A stretch of DNA of 32,418 nt, from NCBI GenBank assembly GCA_041694845.1, contig JBGFRY010000008.1, positions 1 to 32,418 of the forward strand, written 5' to 3'. This stretch comes from Candidatus Micrarchaeota archaeon (GTDB lineage: Archaea > Micrarchaeota > Micrarchaeia > Anstonellales > Bilamarchaeaceae). Position numbers and translations under genes: made by a program. A model generated the notes under the pieces. The model did not search any database. It worked only from the letters and a program-made list of their open reading frames with translations, and had not been told where the DNA came from. This document shows positions 593 through 32,418 of the stretch, piece by piece; the first letter of the stretch is position 1; the number at the start of each line of letters is the position of its first letter.

Positions 593-3022
593 ATGCTTCC
601 AAATAGATACGATCGTTCAATCGAAAAAAAATGGCAGAAGTACTGGATTGAAAACAACATCTATACCTTCGCAGAATTAGAACTCGAGAGAGGAAACTCG
701 AAATTTGAAGCATCAATACCTATCTATTCTATAGATACCCCACCACCGTTTACAAATGGTGAGCTCCATATGGGCCATGTTCTCTCCTACGCATTCTTTG
801 ATTTTGTTGCGCGTTATAAACGCATGCGCGGCTATAATGTTTATTACCCACAAGGATGGGATACTCAAGGTTTTCCAACAGAAGTTCGTGTTGAAAATAA
901 ATTTGGTACATTACCTCTGGTTAAATTCAGACAGAAATGTGTAGAATGGACTTACGAATTCATTGCTCGCATGAAACAACAGATGATTGAGCTAGGTTTT
1001 TCTCCAGACTGGCGCTATGAATATCGGACGATGGATTCTGAATATCATGCAAAAGTTCAGAAATCTCTTATAGAAATGTATAATAAAAAACTTATCTATC
1101 GTGCGGAATATCCTGTTTATTGGTGTCCAAAATGTGTTTCAGCAATTGCAAAAGCAGAATTAGATGATGTTGAAAAACAAGGAATTATTTATAATATTAT
1201 CTTTAGAGATAAGAATAATAAAAAACTCGTAATTGCGACTACGCGACCAGAACTTCTGCCAGCATGCGTTGCACTTCTCTATCATTCACAAGATGAACGA
1301 TATGCATATCTAAAAAATGCGGGAAAAGTAATCACACCACTTGGAAAGGAAATTCCAATCTTTGCAGATAGTGATGTTGATAAGGAGTTTGGCAGTGGTT
1401 TAGTGATGGTATGCACATTTGGAGACAAAATGGATGTTGTCTGGGCTCATAGATACAAACTGGCTTTTGTAAACTGCATAGACCAATATGGAAAGATGAT
1501 AAATGCAGGAGAGCTAAATGGGCTTAAAGTATCAGATGCAAAGAAAAAAATTGTTGAGAAACTAAAGAGCGAAGGAAAAGTTTTGAAAGAACAGCAATTA
1601 CCACAGATAGTAAAGGTACATGATAGATGTAACACTGTTGTTGAACTTATTTCATCAATGCAATGGTTCGCAGATATCAGAACACATGCAAAGGCAATTA
1701 AAGAGATGGCGCATAAAATAAAGTGGGTTCCTGATTTTGGGATAACCTATCTCATTGATTGGATTGAGGGTGCTGAATGGGATTGGGTTATCTCAAGGCA
1801 GCGGATTTTCGGTACCCCAATTCCATTTTACTATTGTGAGAAATGTGGTGCAACTGCGCCATCGGATGTACTTCCATTCTATCCAGAAAAAGCAGAACCA
1901 AAAAAATGTAATTGTGGAGAAAGAATGAAACCTGAAACAAGTATATGTGACTGCTGGGTAGACTCATCAATTACTCCTTTAATTATAAGTGGCTGGCCTG
2001 ATAACAAAAAAATGTTCGAAAAACTTTACCCATCTTCACTAAGACCACAGGGTGTGGAAATCGTTCGTACATGGGCATTTTATACTATATATCGAAGTGG
2101 TGTTGGTTTAACAGGCATTCCTCCATGGGAAACAATTCTACTTAATGGAAAGGTACTTGCTCCAGATGGAAAAAAGATGTCAAAAAGTTTGGGTAATGTT
2201 ATCTCACCTACAGAATTATTGAAAGAGTATTCTGCAGATGCAATAAGACAATGGGCTGCAATGAGTGGTGCAATGGCAAAAGACCGTCCATTCAGCTATG
2301 AAGACATAAAATATGCAAAAAGTTTCATTACAAAATTATGGAATGCTGCACGTTTTATAGAAGATATAGATACAGAAAAGCAGTTTGGTATAACTACTAG
2401 TGAAATTAAAAAGAAGCCACCACTCTTCATGAAAGTCGACAAATGGATGCTTAACAAATTAAACAATCTAGTCGAAGAAGTAACAGATGCATATGAAAGA
2501 TTTGAATTCCACTCTGTCATGAATTTAATACATCAATTTTTCTGGCATGATTTCTGCGATGATTATCTTGAGTTCACTAAATATAGGATATATAGCACAG
2601 TTGATGACTTAAATGATGACTATACAAAATCAGGAGCTATTGCTGCTTACTATACTCTAAAAGAAATACTTACTACTTGTTTATTCTTACTTGCACCTAT
2701 TACTCCACATGTTACTGAGGAGATATACTCTAGTTTTAATGAACATAAAAACAAAAGCATTCACAATAGTGCACTATGGCCAGCAAGAGTTCATAAATTT
2801 GATGATGAATTTTCTGATATTGAAGCAATGCGCGAAATCATCCATCAATTAAGGCGATATAAAGCAAAAAACAAATCCTCTCAAGCAACAGAGATTGGAT
2901 GTGTAGAAATAACTTCAAATGTAAAACTCAACGAGGAAATTGTTAAAGAGATAAAACGAATAAGCAAAGTAAAAGAGATTAGAGTAAAAAAAGGGGAAAA
3001 TCTAGTTGTTGAGGTAAAGTAA
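593..3022 (+). CDS. valS: Valine--tRNA ligase
   Basis: DTPPP, HMGH, WDWVISRQR and KMSKS motifs of class Ia ValRS. ATG at 593 preferred over TTG at 581. Confidence 0.96.
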   Translation: MLPNRYDRSIEKKWQKYWIENNIYTFAELELERGNSKFEASIPIYSIDTPPPFTNGELHMGHVLSYAFFDFVARYKRMRGYNVYYPQGWDTQGFPTEVRVENKFGTLPLVKFRQKCVEWTYEFIARMKQQMIELGFSPDWRYEYRTMDSEYHAKVQKSLIEMYNKKLIYRAEYPVYWCPKCVSAIAKAELDDVEKQGIIYNIIFRDKNNKKLVIATTRPELLPACVALLYHSQDERYAYLKNAGKVITPLGKEIPIFADSDVDKEFGSGLVMVCTFGDKMDVVWAHRYKLAFVNCIDQYGKMINAGELNGLKVSDAKKKIVEKLKSEGKVLKEQQLPQIVKVHDRCNTVVELISSMQWFADIRTHAKAIKEMAHKIKWVPDFGITYLIDWIEGAEWDWVISRQRIFGTPIPFYYCEKCGATAPSDVLPFYPEKAEPKKCNCGERMKPETSICDCWVDSSITPLIISGWPDNKKMFEKLYPSSLRPQGVEIVRTWAFYTIYRSGVGLTGIPPWETILLNGKVLAPDGKKMSKSLGNVISPTELLKEYSADAIRQWAAMSGAMAKDRPFSYEDIKYAKSFITKLWNAARFIEDIDTEKQFGITTSEIKKKPPLFMKVDKWMLNKLNNLVEEVTDAYERFEFHSVMNLIHQFFWHDFCDDYLEFTKYRIYSTVDDLNDDYTKSGAIAAYYTLKEILTTCLFLLAPITPHVTEEIYSSFNEHKNKSIHNSALWPARVHKFDDEFSDIEAMREIIHQLRRYKAKNKSSQATEIGCVEITSNVKLNEEIVKEIKRISKVKEIRVKKGENLVVEVK

Positions 3023-8935: not shown

Positions 8936-10240
8936 ATGACAACATTGCGCGATTTTATCGAAAAATTAAGAAAAGAAGGAAAATTGCTTGAATTGAAAAA
9001 GCCAATTTCAAAACATCTTGAGCTTGCTAGCGTACTTGGTGCGCTTGATGGCCAGGTTGTTTATACTGACAAGATAAAAGAAAATCCTGGTGCGAGAATT
9101 GTCGGAAATGTTTTTTCAACACAAGAGTTTGTTGCAGAATGTTTAGGTTGCAAAAAAGAAGAGTTGATGGCAAGATTAATGTATGCAATAGATAATCCGT
9201 CAAAGCCAAGGTTAATTGATGCAAAAAAAGCACCAGTTCTCGAAGTTAGTGAAGCGACTGTCGACCTTTCTAAATACCCAATTCCATTTCATGCAGAAAA
9301 AGATGGTGGACCATATTTTAGCTCAGCTGTAGTAATTGTACAAGATAAAGAACTCGGTAGAAATTGCTCGTTCCATAGAATGATGGTGATTGGAAAGGAT
9401 AGAGTAGTAATGCGTATTTTGGCGCGTCATTTAAACGAATTTATTAAACGAGCTGGTGGAGAACTTGATGTGGCATTTGTTCTTGGAGCACCAATTAATG
9501 TTTTACTTGCTGGAGCAATATCAATCGAACTCGGATCTGATGAATTGGAAATCGCTAATACGCTCATGCCGCTTGAAACCGTACTCCTGCCAAATGGAAT
9601 AGAAGTACCTGCTGATGTTGAATTCGCATTTGAAGGAAAAATTACAACTGAACTCGCAGATGAAGGACCGTTCATTGATTTAACTGAAACATATGACATC
9701 GTTCGGAAACAACCAGTAATGAAGATAACAAAGGTACATCATCGCAAGAATCCAGTATGGCACGTACTGCTACCTAGTGGACAGGAGCATAAAATTTTGA
9801 TGGGTATGCCAAGAGAACCAACGATTTTTAATGAAGTAAGTAAAGTTTGCGAGTGCAAAAGAGTTAATATAACACCTGGTGGCTGTTCTTGGTTGCATGC
9901 AGTTGTCTCAATAAAGAAAAAAAATGAGGATGATGGAAGGAAAGCAATAGAAGCAGCATTTAATGGGCATAAATCGCTTAAACACGTGGTAATAGTTGAC
10001 GAAGATATAGATATTTACGATGAGCGCTCTGTAGAATGGGCTATTGCAACAAGGGTTCAGGCAAACAAATCACTAGTAATAAAACAAAACGAAAAAGGCT
10101 CTTCATTAGATCCCAGCGCTGATCTAAAGACATATACTACTACAAAAATGGGAATTGATGCGACAAAGCCGCTAGTTGCGCATGGAAAGAATTTTGAAAA
10201 AGCAAGATGGATTAAAGTAAATCCAAACAATTTCTTGTAA
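8936..10240 (+). CDS. UbiD-family prFMN decarboxylase, probable trans-anhydromevalonate 5-phosphate decarboxylase
   Basis: KDGGPY, SFHRM, EGPFIDLTETYD, VDEDIDIYD, GSSLDPS and KMGIDAT motifs. Adjacent to ubiX and both AcnX subunits. Confidence 0.88.
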   Translation: MTTLRDFIEKLRKEGKLLELKKPISKHLELASVLGALDGQVVYTDKIKENPGARIVGNVFSTQEFVAECLGCKKEELMARLMYAIDNPSKPRLIDAKKAPVLEVSEATVDLSKYPIPFHAEKDGGPYFSSAVVIVQDKELGRNCSFHRMMVIGKDRVVMRILARHLNEFIKRAGGELDVAFVLGAPINVLLAGAISIELGSDELEIANTLMPLETVLLPNGIEVPADVEFAFEGKITTELADEGPFIDLTETYDIVRKQPVMKITKVHHRKNPVWHVLLPSGQEHKILMGMPREPTIFNEVSKVCECKRVNITPGGCSWLHAVVSIKKKNEDDGRKAIEAAFNGHKSLKHVVIVDEDIDIYDERSVEWAIATRVQANKSLVIKQNEKGSSLDPSADLKTYTTTKMGIDATKPLVAHGKNFEKARWIKVNPNNFL

Positions 10241-29123: not shown

Positions 29124-29435
29124 TTATGCGGCCCCAACCCCTCCCTTTTTTATTATTTCAATAACTGTCCAAGCCTTTCTCTTGCTTATCTTCCTAGTTT
29201 CACCTATCTTAACAATATCTCCAGTAGCTGCGTTTATGCATAGTGGATTATGCGCCATTATATGTGATCTTCCTTTCGCCCATCTTTTATATTTACTAAG
29301 ATATTTTGTTACACTTCGCTCAATTACTACGGTATTTTTTGCTTTAGTGCTTATGATCTTACCAGTTATAACTGCTCCTCGAACGCGGACTGTTCCATGA
29401 ATATAACATTTCTTATCCATACATCTATCTGTCAT
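29124..29435 (-). CDS. rps17: 30S ribosomal protein uS17
   Basis: CMDKKCYIHG, AHNP and GETRKISKRK motifs. ATG 29435 follows GGTG. Confidence 0.95.
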   Translation of the reverse strand: MTDRCMDKKCYIHGTVRVRGAVITGKIISTKAKNTVVIERSVTKYLSKYKRWAKGRSHIMAHNPLCINAATGDIVKIGETRKISKRKAWTVIEIIKKGGVGAA

Positions 29436-29582
29436 AACACCATCTCTAATTCTCACTGTCTAAAAGGTATAAATACAAATCGCCTTTGTTTTTAAAAACA
29501 GGCTTTAGGCGAATCTTATCTGCGCGAGCAGATAAGGTGTTCAACCTGTTGAGGGATAAATAGAGAGAAAGATTTAAAAAGC
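29436..29582 (-). promoter_or_regulatory. Putative promoter and structured 5' leader of the rps17-adk operon
   Basis: TATA-like TTTTTAAAT (minus strand, 29580-29572). Hairpins at 29541-29552, 29515-29536 (perfect 9-bp stem) and 29480-29512. Confidence 0.55.
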
Positions 29583-29623
29583 GGTTATTTTTTTAGTAAG
29601 TGCTACGCTGTCAGCCAATTCAG

Positions 29624-29713
29624 GTGAACTTCGTTCACAACTGCAAAAAATACATTTTTGCATCGATCGTGAACTTCGTTCACAACTGCAAAAAATACAT
29701 TTTTGCATCGATC
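29624..29713. repeat. Perfect tandem duplication, 2 x 45 bp, internally palindromic
   Basis: GTGAACTTCGTTCACAACTGCAAAAAATACATTTTTGCATCGATC at 29624-29668 and 29669-29713. Confidence 0.95.
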
Positions 29714-29790
29714 AAATACGAATAAATAATAAACAAAAAATATTGATTCTCAAATTTATAATAGTGCTAGCAGAAGACCATTTGACTGTT

Positions 29791-30440
29791 CTATTGCTTG
29801 AGTAACCATTTCCAAAGCATCATAAATTTAATTTTTTTATTCTTTACTTTTTCATCTTTTTCATATTTATTCGTTATCACAAGAAGATTATTGCAGCCGA
29901 GTTCGTTGTTTGCTTTTAACAGAGCTTTTGTTTCTCTTTCTTTAGTTTTATAGTCCTCCATGCTATAGCAAACCTGTACAAGTTTGTAGAGTAGTGATTT
30001 TTTCTCATCAGTTCTACACAGACTGTATTCTCAAAAAGTTTACCAATATCGCGAGACAATTTAAAACCAATAAAATTACAAAATCAGTGATCAATTGCAT
30101 AAACTTTTTTTTGGCGCTATTACCTGCTCATTTAATTTTGGAGAAAAATTTTCTAAAATTATTATAAGAAATGCTTCTCTCAAATAACTGATATAATTCT
30201 TTGTTGTGTGGACATCCTTTACTCCAAATATTTTTGAGAGTTTTGAGTATGTAAACTCATTAGAAAAAATACATATCAGGTTTAAATTCTAAAATTTCCT
30301 TGAAAGAAAAAGGGTAGAGGTTGAATCTATGTACCTACCGGTTAAATGGGTTGTAAGTTCGCCGCTGAGCAATTGTGAGTTGCTACCCGTAATTATCACT
30401 TTCTTTGTTCTCCTCAAGCGATTTATGAAAAAGCTTCCCT
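29791..30440 (-). pseudogene. Decayed COG1373 (AAA_14/DUF4143) ATPase
   Basis: Fragments across frameshifts: FINRLRRTKKVIITGSNSQLLSGELTTHLTGRY, LYPFSFKEIL, FTYSKLSKIFGVKDVHTTKNYISYLREAFLI, KVYAIDH*, GKLFENTVCVELMRK, LVQVCY...ERETKALL...LWKWLLKQ*. Confidence 0.88.
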
Positions 30441-30677
30441 CCGCGATTTGATTTAAAGTTTGTAGTTAAAAACCCCAAACTTTTAAAAATAGTATGTAGT
30501 TACCAAACTTTCGCAATTACAACTTAAGTGAAAGTTAAGAAATGCGCTCGAATTTGCGAAATGTGGGTTTCTGCTTCTGGAAGCTTCTAGTTTTTGAACG
30601 TTCAAAAAAGCGAACAAAAATAGCCAAAAATGTTCGAAAATTTGAACAAATATTTCTTTAGTAAAAACATAAGTTGC

Positions 30678-30723
30678 AAAAGTGCACCAAAAATGCCTAT
30701 TTTCAGTGCAAAAGTGCACCATT
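30678..30723 (+). repeat. 46-bp direct repeat, left copy
   Basis: AAAAGTGCACCAAAAATGCCTATTTTCAGTGCAAAAGTGCACCATT, identical to 31922-31967. Confidence 0.95.
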
Positions 30724-30751
30724 TAAAAGACCATCCATAAAGATTAATTAC

Positions 30752-31918
30752 ATGGACGAACATATTGTAGAGAAGGCTTTAGCCATAGGGACTAACATCA
30801 TCGAATCCAATTATAAGAAGTACCCTAAAAAAAGATACCTGCACCAGATCCTAAAAAAAGAGATCGACAACAAGGAACTGATTACCATTCTCATGGGATT
30901 GCGCGGCACTGGAAAAACGGTTCTCATCTCACAGCTGATAGCCGGAAAAAAATATGCCTATCTCCAGATGGACTACGCTCCAATGAAAGGTCAGGATCTT
31001 CACGACGTTCTCGTTTACCTTCACAAGGTAAAGGGGATGGATGTCCTCGTTTTGGACGAATTTCAGGATTCAATGGATTTCTCCTCAGTCAAAGCATTTT
31101 ATGAGGAAACCAAGGGTGAAGTCTCTCTTGTCATCACCGGTTCATCGGCAGTGGCTTTATACCCCCCCGAGCTCACTCGGAGAGTGAAGACATTGACGCT
31201 TGAACCGCTTAGTTTCAGAGAGTACCTATTTTTCAAAAAAGACATTGAACTTCAGCCTCTTTTCCTGAATGACATAATAGAAGGAAAATGGAAAGATCTC
31301 ATCGTCTATTCACCGATCATTTCGGAGTACATGCGAATCGCCCTTCCGTATATGCTAGAGACAGAAGCCAGCATCCTTGATCTTATCGATAGAATAATAC
31401 GCCACGACTTAGTTGTTTTCAGAAAGATAAACCAGGAGAACATCGCCGAGGTTGAAAAAATACTATTTTCGCTTGCAGTTTCAAAAGGAGAAACCTCGTT
31501 CAGCTCGCTCTCCAATAAGACTGGCGTTGAAAAAACGCAGGTGATGCGTTATATTTCTTTGCTGAGGGACGTACTCCTGCTCAAAGAAGTTCCTTCCTCT
31601 GGCTCTCCGAGCAGGGCGATACTCAAAGAAAGAAAATTCTACCTCACCCCTCCATTCCGACAGGGGATTTGCAACGAGCTTGGGTTGTGGGTAGACATTG
31701 GAATGCTCAGAGAGGAGTTTTTTATTCAACATACATTCAGGTATTCTCCATCGTATGTTTGGGGTAGGGGCATGCCTGATTTCATGATTGGTGGGAAGAC
31801 ATACGAAGTTGGTGGACCATCAAAGAAGAGAGAACAGCAATCCAATTATGTCGTCGTGGATGGTAAAGTGCCTGGAAAAGATGAGCTTCCACTCATTGCC
31901 TTTGGGTTTCTGTATTGA
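30752..31918 (+). CDS. COG1373-type AAA+ ATPase (AAA_14) with wHTH and C-terminal PD-(D/E)xK-like region
   Basis: GLRGTGKT, LVLDEFQ, ITGSS, LEPLSFREYL, HTH SFSSLSNKTGVEKTQVMRYISLL, KFYL and PDF...YEVGG motifs. ATG 30752 lies about 25 nt after TTTAAAAG. Confidence 0.88.
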   Translation: MDEHIVEKALAIGTNIIESNYKKYPKKRYLHQILKKEIDNKELITILMGLRGTGKTVLISQLIAGKKYAYLQMDYAPMKGQDLHDVLVYLHKVKGMDVLVLDEFQDSMDFSSVKAFYEETKGEVSLVITGSSAVALYPPELTRRVKTLTLEPLSFREYLFFKKDIELQPLFLNDIIEGKWKDLIVYSPIISEYMRIALPYMLETEASILDLIDRIIRHDLVVFRKINQENIAEVEKILFSLAVSKGETSFSSLSNKTGVEKTQVMRYISLLRDVLLLKEVPSSGSPSRAILKERKFYLTPPFRQGICNELGLWVDIGMLREEFFIQHTFRYSPSYVWGRGMPDFMIGGKTYEVGGPSKKREQQSNYVVVDGKVPGKDELPLIAFGFLY

Positions 31919-31921
31919 AGT

Positions 31922-31967
31922 AAAAGTGCACCAAAAATGCCTATTTTCAGTGCAAAAGTGCACCATT
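31922..31967 (+). repeat. 46-bp direct repeat, right copy
   Basis: Identical to 30678-30723; begins 3 nt after the ATPase stop codon. Confidence 0.95.
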
Positions 31968-32418
31968 CTTGTTAAGCGATATCATTTTATCAGTGGCTTA
32001 ATTCTATGGTCCTTAGATATTTAATTCTTTTAAAGCACTTATTGCGCTTATTCTCATCTGCCAACTCCCAATCAGAACCATTGTCATTTAATAAATAAAG
32101 AGAAAATTTTTGAGATGTTTCAATATAAAGCGTTTTTTTCTCTATGTCAACATAAAGTACTTGACTAAAATCTCACCTCCTGGTTCGTCTCTTCTTGATT
32201 CGTTGTGCCAAGGAGCTGCTGCAGGTCCTTTATAATATGTTTTTTTCTCAACTTCTAAAACATGAACTGAACAATCGCATTTTTAATTTCTTATCGTAAA
32301 CTATTGCAACGTCTTTATGAGAAAAAGTATGACGTTAGTTTATGCTGCGAGCGAGTTTGCAATAGATGAGACAGGAACAAAAGCACCATAAAATTTTTTA
32401 TATAATACATCGTAAGCA

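What the first reader, a model, noticed from the sequence alone, without database searches (positions are those of the whole stretch)
30675..31967. Single-gene cassette: ATPase-wHTH-nuclease-like gene precisely bracketed by perfect 46-bp direct repeats
Seen: identical 46-bp repeats abut the TATA-like box upstream and start 3 nt after the stop codon. Each holds two AAAAGTGCACCA boxes 32 bp apart (about 3 helical turns) with a GTGCAC palindrome. The gene looks GC-richer than its neighbours (by eye, not computed), and no integrase or transposase is in the window. Knowledge: COG1373 ATPases are widespread, patchily distributed and poorly characterised. Inference: an excisable or amplifiable promoter-plus-gene cassette, with iteron-like boxes possibly bound by its own wHTH. 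It could be a minimal mobile or defence unit. This is the best candidate for an undescribed system here.
Basis: partly seen in the sequence, partly recalled or inferred. Interest (0 to 1): 0.8.

Follow-up and report, generated by a model that had tools for sequence, protein, structure and literature searches.

The report
Defence-candidate gene cassette with duplicated operator
A single imported ATPase gene of a very common but untested anti-virus candidate family sits between two identical copies of its own control site, an arrangement that recurs in related tiny archaea and suggests the gene travels as a self-contained one-gene unit.

Summary
Perfect 46-nt direct repeats (30678-30723, 31922-31967) bracket one 388-aa gene (30752-31918) that is GC-richer than the genome (0.44 against 0.35).

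The gene belongs to a catalogued family: COG1373, Pfam AAA_14, PADLOC candidate PDC-S01.

The repeat is the gene's own operator. It holds two palindromic boxes (GTGCA-N4-TGCAC) 32 nt apart and ends at the TATA box. The same 32/33-nt two-box promoter array is family-wide (49 of 55 scorable loci).

A second operator copy directly after the stop codon recurs in one clade of DPANN archaea (ultra-small archaea). It is present in 8 of 8 orthologues, each in a different neighbourhood, in about 10 of 42 more distant archaeal relatives and in 0 of 76 mostly bacterial ones. Two paralogues in this genome have it with other sequences.

The two copies are identical within a genome but differ between genomes.

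Near-identical relatives in unrelated contexts share only box 1 to the stop codon. I therefore read the structure as about 1.04 units of a head-to-tail (circular or tandem) mobile cassette. A regulatory second operator is the main rival.

One relative holds a clean solo operator with no gene. No circle, tandem or empty-site reads could be obtained.

This scan has met such cassettes before on other DNA.

The parts
30673..30723 (+). Upstream operator copy (R-up). Box 1 is GTTGCAAAAGTGCACCA at 30673-30689 and box 2 is AGTGCAAAAGTGCACCA at 30705-30721. The perfect direct repeat is 30678-30723.
   Evidence: self-similarity score 15 at offset 32.
30722..30728 (+). TATA-like box TTTAAAA, directly after box 2 and 24 nt before the ATG. 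This would give a leaderless or near-leaderless mRNA (inferred).
   Evidence: A TATA-like element follows box 2 in all 8 orthologues.
30752..31918 (+). 388-aa AAA+ ATPase - wHTH - C-terminal PD-(D/E)XK-like domain (COG1373 / AAA_14 / PDC-S01). It has Walker A GLRGTGKT, Walker B D102-E103, and conserved E321, D343, E352 and K358.
31922..31967 (+). Downstream operator copy (R-down), 3 nt after the stop codon. The left arm of box 1 is replaced by the stop codon region, box 2 is intact, and no TATA box follows.
30600..30652 (+). Solo operator-like pair R'. GTTCAAAAAAGCGAACAAAAA and GTTCGAAAATTTGAACAAATA lie 32 nt apart, are unique in the genome and have no gene of their own. It is possibly the remnant of an earlier cassette.
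   Evidence: unique; inverted-repeat arms. Box type resembles L009/L010. The remnant reading is inference.
29797..30447 (-). Frameshifted, 5'-truncated pseudogene of another COG1373-type paralogue. It aligns to residues 109-406 of the C48 paralogue. Its first ~108 codons and promoter are missing where R' and the present cassette lie.

Best explanation
The segment is a horizontally acquired single-gene cassette of the PDC-S01/COG1373 family, which is a candidate anti-phage ATPase-wHTH-nuclease that has never been tested.

Each 46-bp repeat is the gene's own operator. It holds two palindromic boxes (GTGCA-N4-TGCAC) three helical turns apart. Each box probably binds a wHTH dimer of the encoded protein. 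The upstream copy ends at the TATA box, so binding there should repress the gene (inferred).

Across the family, the unit that turns up in unrelated neighbourhoods runs from box 1 to the stop codon. In a clade of DPANN archaea the integrated cassette carries a second operator copy directly after the stop codon. It therefore looks like about 1.04 unit lengths of a head-to-tail (circular or tandem) form.

My reading is that this terminal redundancy is made when the cassette is copied or inserted from such an intermediate. Afterwards it allows loss of the gene by repeat-by-repeat recombination, which leaves a solo operator.

Shown:
- the repeats, their box structure and their recurrence
- the sharing of only box 1 to the stop codon between near-identical relatives in unrelated contexts
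- identity of the two copies within a genome against divergence between genomes
- one solo operator in a relative

Inferred:
- protein binding and repression
- the circular or tandem intermediate
- who does the cutting
For: (1) The repeat is the operator.
- Of 126 non-duplicate homologous loci, 55 have a promoter self-match of score 9 or more. In 49 of those 55 the best offset is 32 or 33 nt. In a control region 400 nt upstream, 0 of 12 do.
- Box 2 abuts a TATA-like element in 8 of 8 orthologues.
- Box type follows the protein tree: GTGCA type in six, GTTCC/GTTAC type in L009+L010, which form a 99* clade.

(2) The downstream copy recurs with the same geometry.
- The upstream copy ends 26-41 nt before the ATG. 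The downstream copy starts between -4 and +14 nt of the stop, except in L007 where it starts at -35.
- A strong flanking repeat is present in 6 of 8 loci at 50% identity or more, 9 of 42 at 28-36%, and 0 of 76 below 28%. The reversed-sequence control never exceeds 12.
- With a box-aware scan the counts are 7/7, 7/22 and 0/20. By eye, 8 of 8 orthologues have it.
- Two paralogues in this genome have their own versions: 58 nt at 93% and 50 nt at 98%.

(3) The repeat travels with the gene.
- The 8 orthologues share no flanking gene apart from another COG1373-type gene beside WIN and L010.
- Their repeats are nevertheless homologous to one another.

(4) Concerted or fresh duplication.
- Spacers differ between genomes but are identical within a genome. 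Differences are 0/46 in WIN, 0/79 in L007 and 0/49 in L010. L008, L009 and L088 are partly decayed.
- Similarity stops sharply at the repeat edges.

(5) Head-to-tail signature.
- In L007 the upstream copy also holds the last 35 nt of the cassette's own gene.
- In C3 a decayed stretch of about 24 nt does the same (read by eye).

(6) Unit boundaries.
- Of 31 near-identical gene pairs, 23 lose homology between -72 and +44 nt of the stop, and upstream between -41 and -194.
- The 6 such pairs with 95% or more gene identity lose it at -2 to +26.
- In several pairs the upstream breakpoint coincides with box 1. The pairs are not independent.

(7) Foreign composition and a variable site.
- The gene is GC 0.44 in a 0.35 genome.
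- It sits where the 5' end of an older paralogue is missing.

(8) Solo operator.
- G013 has a two-box R of this type with no gene and no TATA box. It lies between a 239-aa ORF and the 3' end of a convergent ORF.
- G304 has R, a TATA box and about 20 codons, then unrelated DNA.
- Neither genome has an orthologue of the window's cassette gene.
Against: - No read-level evidence exists for a circle, a tandem or an empty site. The only run held six short contigs and no joints.
- No same-genus relative is available for a presence/absence comparison.
- Each cassette type occurs once per genome. An active transposable element would usually leave several copies.
- Most members of the same archaeal clade (23 of 41 in the tree) and all bacterial relatives sampled lack the second copy, yet they are just as scattered. 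The redundancy is therefore not needed for movement.
- A PD-(D/E)XK nuclease cannot join DNA, and no recombinase is nearby.
- The nuclease fold itself was not confirmed.
- Identity of the two copies could also come from gene conversion anchored on boxes that are kept alike by selection.
- L009 keeps its boxes (15/17 and 15/17) while its spacer has diverged (about 6/15, by eye). That fits a functional second site.
- The solo operator is a single case. It could arise by ordinary deletion.
- The tree is a quick, unfinished search.
Confidence: 0.45

Rival explanations
1. The downstream copy is a working second operator. The AAA+ protein bound at both copies bridges them into a loop of about 1.2 kb, or forms roadblocks at both ends. 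This tightens repression of a potentially toxic nuclease and insulates the cassette from whatever neighbourhood it lands in. The two copies stay alike because both must fit the same protein, and gene conversion between them homogenises the spacer. The cassette moves as R-gene-R by ordinary recombination.
For: - The architecture is kept in 8 of 8 orthologues that are only 52-72% identical in protein. That is hard to reconcile with a neutral scar.
- In L009 and L025 the downstream boxes or half-sites are kept while spacer or inner bases differ.
- The fold resembles Orc1/Cdc6 and STAND ATPases, which oligomerise on or near DNA.
- The repeat edges coincide with the outer edges of the boxes, as box-anchored conversion would give.
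Against: - Pooled over L008, L009 and L088, boxes match in about 87% of positions and spacers in about 65% (my count). That ratio is also expected if only the upstream copy is constrained, so it does not show selection on the downstream copy.
- 23 of 41 clade members and all 76 distant relatives do without the second copy.
- A convergent downstream neighbour is no more frequent with the repeat (9 of 15) than without it (13 of 22). The simple roadblock idea therefore gets no support.
- The gene-end duplication upstream in L007 (and in C3) has no regulatory rationale.
Confidence: 0.3
2. The repeats are a scar of 'insertion with long target duplication', as described for restriction-modification genes. 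A stretch of the recipient genome was duplicated when foreign DNA was inserted, and the repeats have no role afterwards.
For: - Furuta et al. 2010 (PMC2853133, passages read) report defence-gene insertions with 46-47-bp and longer direct duplications and no mobility genes.
- Paralogue C48 in this same genome has exactly this type. Its 38-nt repeat is unique in the genome, and the downstream copy overlaps the 3' end of a convergent host gene.
- Earlier notes of this scan describe target-derived duplications at other COG1373 cassettes (untested by me).
Against: - For the window's cassette the repeat is not target DNA. It is homologous among 8 orthologues in unrelated neighbourhoods.
- It is the promoter operator.
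- It contains the cassette's own gene end in L007.
Confidence: 0.07
3. Assembly artefact. A free 1.24-kb circle, or a collapsed repeat, was threaded into the contig through a shared 46-nt word.
For: - The window comes from a fragmented metagenome-assembled genome of 71 contigs.
- The contig ends 450 nt after the cassette, in a dispersed repeat.
Against: - The same architecture appears in many independent assemblies and collections, with repeats of up to 79 nt.
- A 151-nt contig of run X1 spans the left flank, R-up and the gene start (30637-30787). That run may be the source sample.
Confidence: 0.03

Closest known systems
PADLOC PDC-S01 (COG1373; Pfam AAA_14 + DUF4143), a candidate single-gene anti-phage system
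   Same: - The window protein matches six PDC-S01 models, the best at E 7.8e-26. Both paralogues match too.
- It is a single gene with an N-terminal P-loop ATPase, a wHTH and a C-terminal PD-(D/E)XK-type region.
- PMC12988326 (passages read) calls PDC-S01 the fourth most common defence candidate. It reports that PDC-S01 is enriched in Archaea and still lacks experimental validation.
   Different: - The passages I read say nothing about a two-box operator, flanking repeats or mobility as a unit.
- This subfamily matches Pfam DUF4143 only weakly, and only over its first half.
Insertion with long target duplication of restriction-modification genes (Furuta, Abe, Kobayashi 2010, PMC2853133)
   Same: - Defence-type genes are flanked by direct repeats of 30 to 400 bp or more (46-47 bp in several cases).
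- No transposase or integrase is present.
- GC is deviant.
- The authors propose that such repeats allow amplification and release (passages read).
   Different: - There the repeat is recipient DNA that is present once in the empty site.
- Here the repeat belongs to the cassette. It is its operator, it travels with the gene, and in L007 it includes the gene's own 3' end.
Archaeal Orc1/Cdc6 with origin recognition boxes, and iteron-binding plasmid initiators
   Same: - An AAA+ ATPase with a wHTH is encoded next to repeated recognition boxes spaced in helical phase.
- Foldseek ranks Orc1/Cdc6-DNA complexes among the best matches (E about 1e-7).
   Different: - TM-scores are low (0.25-0.46).
- The boxes bracket the gene as direct repeats, not a DNA-unwinding element.
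- The protein has an extra C-terminal nuclease-like domain.
- Nothing points to replication.
Free-standing homing endonuclease genes and other one-gene selfish cassettes
   Same: - A single gene has its own promoter and a nuclease-type domain.
- Its distribution is patchy and its insertion boundaries are sharp.
   Different: - There is no conserved target locus, because the neighbourhoods are unrelated.
- No cleavage activity is known.
- An ATPase and an operator array are part of the unit.

Membership tests
PDC-S01 (PADLOC) | Match to the PDC-S01 profile models | tested here: met
   The best E-value is 7.8e-26 (PDLC04789), and 6 models match. Paralogues C3 and C8 also match.
PDC-S01 (PADLOC) | Protection against phage or virus | not testable with these tools
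COG1373 / AAA_14 + DUF4143 | AAA_14 P-loop ATPase domain with Walker A and Walker B motifs | tested here: met
   AAA_14 at E 7.6e-19, 68.4 bits against a cut-off of 27. G49, R51, G52, G54, K55, D102 and E103 are invariant in 14 sequences.
COG1373 / AAA_14 + DUF4143 | DUF4143 domain above the Pfam threshold | tested here: not met
   20.2 bits against a cut-off of 28.1, and only profile positions 9-82 of 160 match. More distant relatives do carry PF13635.
PD-(D/E)XK nuclease superfamily (C-terminal domain) | alpha-beta-beta-beta-alpha-beta core with acidic residues and a lysine | tested here: inconclusive
   - E, D, ExGGxxK are invariant in 15 sequences.
- the model has pLDDT 81.8 with a helix, four strands and a helix.
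- no significant PDB match (best E 2.7), although several PD-(D/E)XK nucleases are among the weak hits.
- Steczkiewicz 2012 lists DUF4143/COG1373 in the superfamily (table row read).
Insertion with long target duplication (Furuta 2010) | Direct repeats over 30 bp flank the inserted gene(s), with no mobility gene | tested here: met
   46 nt; no integrase or transposase among the 20 ORFs tested.
Insertion with long target duplication (Furuta 2010) | The repeat is recipient (target) sequence, present once at the empty site | tested here: not met
   The repeat is homologous among 8 orthologues in unrelated contexts and is the promoter operator. No empty site was available. Paralogue C48 does fit this feature.
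Integrase-type integrative element (attL/attR) | A tyrosine or serine recombinase in or beside the element, with the att core shared with a host site such as a tRNA gene | tested here: not met
   The only gene between the repeats is the ATPase. No tRNA gene lies in 29300-32418. No recombinase family appears.
Insertion sequence / transposon | Terminal inverted repeats, a short target duplication and a transposase | tested here: not met
   One search lists no inverted repeat at the cassette ends. One search shows no similarity beyond the repeat edges. There is no transposase.
Replication origin with Orc1/Cdc6-type initiator, or iteron replicon | Initiator boxes around an AT-rich unwinding element, with autonomous replication | not tested
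   Only fold resemblance and phased boxes were seen. The boxes flank a gene, not an unwinding element. No free replicon was seen, and relatives are absent from the viral contig collection.

The most novel reading that the evidence does not exclude
PDC-S01/COG1373 genes are autonomous one-gene mobile elements.
- The encoded ATPase-wHTH-nuclease binds the two palindromic boxes at the end of its own cassette.
- It cuts at the stop|box 1 and box 2|TATA junctions.
- This releases or copies a unit that passes through a circular or head-to-tail form.
- When the two cuts are staggered across the operator, the unit re-inserts with the operator duplicated at both ends.

The 'defence' label would then be secondary or wrong for at least this clade.
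Probability: 0.15. Interest if true: 0.9.

Novelty: new variant of a known kind. Interest (0 to 1): 0.6.

Why it matters
PDC-S01/COG1373 is reported as one of the most common defence-candidate genes in prokaryotes. PMC12988326 counts 9,986 archaeal and 29,494 bacterial instances. Nothing is known about how it is controlled, what it does or why it is so patchy.

This work contributes three concrete, testable features:
- a family-wide two-box operator in helical phase
- homology between near-identical relatives in unrelated contexts that is limited to box 1 through the stop codon
- in DPANN archaea, a terminal operator duplication that behaves like the signature of a head-to-tail intermediate

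If the protein itself makes the cuts, this would be a new and very small kind of mobile element. If not, it is still a clean model of a self-regulated, portable gene module in genomes of under 1 Mb. This genome devotes at least nine genes to the family.

Tried and rejected
- Reads. The look-up of sequencing runs gave one run (X1, 10% of words, Logan contigs). Laying it gave six short pieces and no joints. This says nothing about circles, tandems or empty sites.
- Synteny and empty site. 41 relatives were searched with 3.7 kb of the locus. Only the ribosomal-protein genes match and there is no same-genus relative.
- Viral contigs. No relative of the protein was found.
- RNA genes. No Rfam family (E up to 0.1) and no tRNA lies in 29300-32418.
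- Genome-wide scan for perfect or near-perfect 14-16-mers 32 nt apart. It found only the window's own boxes, so it had too little power.
- Roadblock against convergent transcription. There was no association (9/15 against 13/22).
- Decayed extension of the duplication beyond the repeat edges. None was seen in 13 of 15 loci; L010's right side scored 17/30 against a null maximum of 12.
- Fold of the C-terminal domain. No significant match.
- First ungapped breakpoint mapping. It gave some false breakpoints (L101/L104 has an indel; L060/L118 have different stop positions). It was redone with gapped BLAST.
- The 45-nt x2 tandem repeat at 29624-29713 as a relic operator. Rejected, because it is part of a dispersed repeat with copies on C13, C44, C11 and C66.
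- The 42-nt repeat around the C2 gene. It is also a dispersed repeat, not a cassette repeat.
- Poorly designed calls. A literature search with 'AAA_14' matched unrelated words. A 5-genome search with a 70-aa piece of the C48 protein was uninformative.
- Literature. Searches were COG1373 (8 papers), PDC-S01 (7) and DUF4143 (4). I read only the passages shown, and none mentions operator arrays or flanking repeats for this family. I did not read the paper that first defined the PDCs (reference 15 of PMC12988326). Supplementary figures (for example Fig. S10 of PMC12988326) are closed and may bear on the family's phylogeny.
Full report
**1. What is there**

The window ends with a variable stretch downstream of a ribosomal-protein operon. 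In it, a single 388-aa ORF (30752-31918, + strand) is bracketed by two perfect 46-nt direct repeats, at 30678-30723 and 31922-31967.

- These are the only copies of the sequence in the 830-kb, 71-contig assembly.
Chance gives 0.28.
- The gene is GC 0.44 in a 0.35 genome.
- The upstream copy runs into a TTTAAAA element 24 nt before the ATG.
- The downstream copy begins 3 nt after the stop codon and has no TATA box after it.

**2. The gene**

- Pfam gives AAA_14 (E 7.6e-19) and a sub-threshold DUF4143 match.
- PADLOC gives PDC-S01 (E 7.8e-26).
- The closest named relatives are 'ATP-binding protein' of Candidatus Micrarchaeota genomes, up to 72% identical.
- An AlphaFold model built on 14 sequences is confident (pLDDT 86.5). 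It resembles AAA+ ATPases with a winged helix, such as Orc1/Cdc6 on DNA, Apaf-1/CED-4 and SSO1545, with low TM-scores.
- The last 99 residues carry invariant E, D and ExGGxxK. They form a helix-strands-helix domain that has no significant structural match. 'Nuclease-like' therefore rests on the motif and on the published placement of DUF4143/COG1373 among PD-(D/E)XK enzymes.

**3. The repeat is the operator**

I collected 80 loci from one-genome-per-species contigs and 80 from metagenomes. I added the window and two paralogues of the same genome. Of these 163 loci, 137 had a complete ORF and usable flanks, and 126 were non-duplicates.

- In the 110 nt before the promoter core, 55 loci have a direct self-match of score 9 or more.
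- In 49 of those 55 the best offset is 32 nt (28 loci) or 33 nt (21 loci).
- A control region 400 nt upstream gives 0 of 12.
- The boxes are palindromes (GTGCA-N4-TGCAC here, GTTCCA-N4-TGGAAC in L010). Their type follows the protein tree.
- Box 2 abuts a TATA-like element in all 8 orthologues.

Binding by the protein's own wHTH, and repression, are inferences.

**4. The second copy recurs in one archaeal clade**

- The two paralogues in this genome (C3, C8) are flanked by their own, different repeats: 58 nt at 93% and 50 nt at 98%. The spacing and geometry are the same.
- Across the survey, a strong repeat hugging the gene is found in 6 of 8 loci that are 50% or more identical to the window protein, 9 of 42 at 28-36%, and 0 of 76 below 28%. 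The last group is mostly bacterial. The reversed-sequence control never exceeds a score of 12.
- A box-aware scan gives 7/7, 7/22 and 0/20.
- By eye, all 8 orthologues have the downstream two-box copy. L008 and L009 have diverged spacers.
- In a quick maximum-likelihood tree (the careful search did not finish), all 18 repeat-bearing genes fall inside a 41-member DPANN clade. At least 7 gains or losses are needed.

**5. The repeat belongs to the cassette, and its two copies evolve in concert**

- The flanks of the 8 orthologues share nothing. The one exception is that both the window and L010 have another COG1373-type gene next door.
- The repeats are nevertheless homologous across these loci.
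- Spacers differ between genomes but are identical within a genome: 0 differences in 46, 79 and 49 nt in WIN, L007 and L010.
- Similarity stops abruptly at the repeat edges.
- In L007 the upstream copy also contains the last 35 nt of the cassette's own coding sequence, directly after the stop codon of carB.
- C3 shows a decayed version of the same thing (by eye).
- This is what one expects if the integrated segment is slightly more than one unit of a head-to-tail form, in which the stop codon is followed by the operator.

**6. What is shared between near-identical copies**

I compared 31 pairs of genes that are about 78-100% identical in DNA, using gapped flank comparisons.

- 23 pairs lose homology between -72 and +44 nt of the stop codon, and between -41 and -194 nt upstream of the ATG.
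- The six of these pairs with 95% or more gene identity break at -2 to +26.
- Eight pairs keep their downstream context.
- In several pairs the upstream breakpoint coincides with box 1.
- The pairs are not independent. At lower identity, fast-evolving spacers may hide shared context.
- The six highly similar pairs are mostly bacterial and suggest that the family relocates as box 1-to-stop units. This agrees with earlier notes e1-1157710 and e1-1112478.

**7. Loss products**

I searched 401 genomes of the phylum with a two-box pattern of the window's type.

- Apart from this genome and G140 (a repeat-flanked orthologue, not counted as independent), it found single sites in G013 and G304. The backward control gave 0.
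- G013 has a clean operator with no TATA box and no gene. It lies between the stop codon of one ORF and the 3' end of a convergent ORF.
- G304 has the operator, a TATA box and about 20 codons, then unrelated DNA.
- Neither genome has an orthologue of the window's cassette gene.
- The two sites share only the 57-nt operator.
It is a single case, and ordinary deletion could make it.
- In the window itself, a unique operator-like pair (30600-30652) lies 25 nt upstream of the cassette. An older COG1373-type gene on the opposite strand (29797-30447) lacks its first ~108 codons at that point.

**8. Explanations**

I rank them as follows.

- First (0.45): the terminal redundancy arises during insertion or copying from a circular or tandem intermediate.
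- Second (0.30): the downstream copy is a working second operator kept alike by selection plus gene conversion.
- Against the first: there is no molecular evidence for the intermediate, there is one copy per genome, there is no joining enzyme, and most relatives lack the redundancy.
- Against the second: many close relatives do without the second copy, there is no link to neighbour orientation, and the gene-end duplication in L007 has no regulatory rationale.
- The box-versus-spacer conservation that I counted does not discriminate between the two.
- The Furuta-type target duplication does not fit this cassette. It does fit paralogue C48 of the same genome. Both kinds of flanking repeat therefore occur within one genome.
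- An assembly artefact is very unlikely, given the many independent assemblies.

**9. Novelty**

- The gene family is known as a candidate. PMC12988326 calls it the fourth most common defence candidate and says it is unvalidated.
- Repeat-flanked cassettes of this family have been noted at least eight times by this scan on other DNA, including one 'duplicated promoter-operator' (e1-805657).
- I found no description in print with the searches. I read passages only.
- New here:
  - the operator duplication is the rule in a DPANN clade
  - it evolves in concert
  - its edges match the edges of what is shared between near-identical relatives
  - a solo operator exists
- I rate it a new variant of a known kind, with interest 0.6.

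Noticed in passing
window 32262-32370 (to the contig end): A dispersed repeat of about 105 nt has 30 or more full or partial copies across the assembly, many at contig ends. One partial copy lies about 280 nt downstream of the C3 cassette, and others lie beside the C2 gene. It probably explains why the contig ends here. Its nature is unknown: it could be a MITE (miniature inverted-repeat transposable element) or a promoter module.
   Followed up: partly
window 29604-29746: This dispersed repeat contains a perfect 45-nt x2 tandem (29624-29713). Copies at 93-100% identity lie on C13, C44, C11 and the end of C66. It contains palindromes and a box resembling the L007-type operator box, but it is not specific to a cassette.
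   Followed up: partly
window 29797-30447 (-): A frameshifted, 5'-truncated pseudogene of another COG1373-type paralogue sits directly beside the cassette. L010's cassette also has another COG1373-type gene next door.
   Followed up: yes
own genome: C61, C3, C8, C4, C48, C6, C53, C66, C9: At least nine intact COG1373-type genes are present in an 830-kb genome. Four of the nine have flanking direct repeats of 38-58 nt.
   Followed up: partly
own genome C48:523-561 and 1870-1907: A 38-nt direct repeat (94.7% identical, unique in the genome) flanks a different COG1373 paralogue. The repeat lies outside the operator palindrome, and its downstream copy overlaps the 3' end of a convergent 348-aa gene. 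This is a target-duplication type.
   Followed up: partly
L179 (G013:C2, about 75858-75899) and L180 (G304:C73, about 2981-3022): L179 is a solo two-box operator without a gene. L180 is an operator plus a TATA box plus about 20 codons of a lost cassette gene. Both come from one genus of the same family as the window's genome.
   Followed up: yes
own genome C45:8634-8695 and 9679-9740: A 62-nt exact direct repeat, 1045 nt apart, lies around a 149-aa ORF on the minus strand (9103-9552) with a hydrophobic N-terminus. It was not examined further.
   Followed up: no
own genome C2:13475-14854: A 459-aa ORF lies between two copies of a 42-nt sequence that belongs to a dispersed repeat. From its first residues it looked to me like an AlbA_2/Schlafen-type regulator. 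That is recalled, not tested.
   Followed up: no
own genome C65:16350-16542, C4:331-616, C21:1-121, C68:23942-24030, C67:1-260: Several tandem or near-tandem repeats with periods of 229-281 nt, and a repeat array with an 81-nt phase, appeared in the direct-repeat scan. They were not examined.
   Followed up: no
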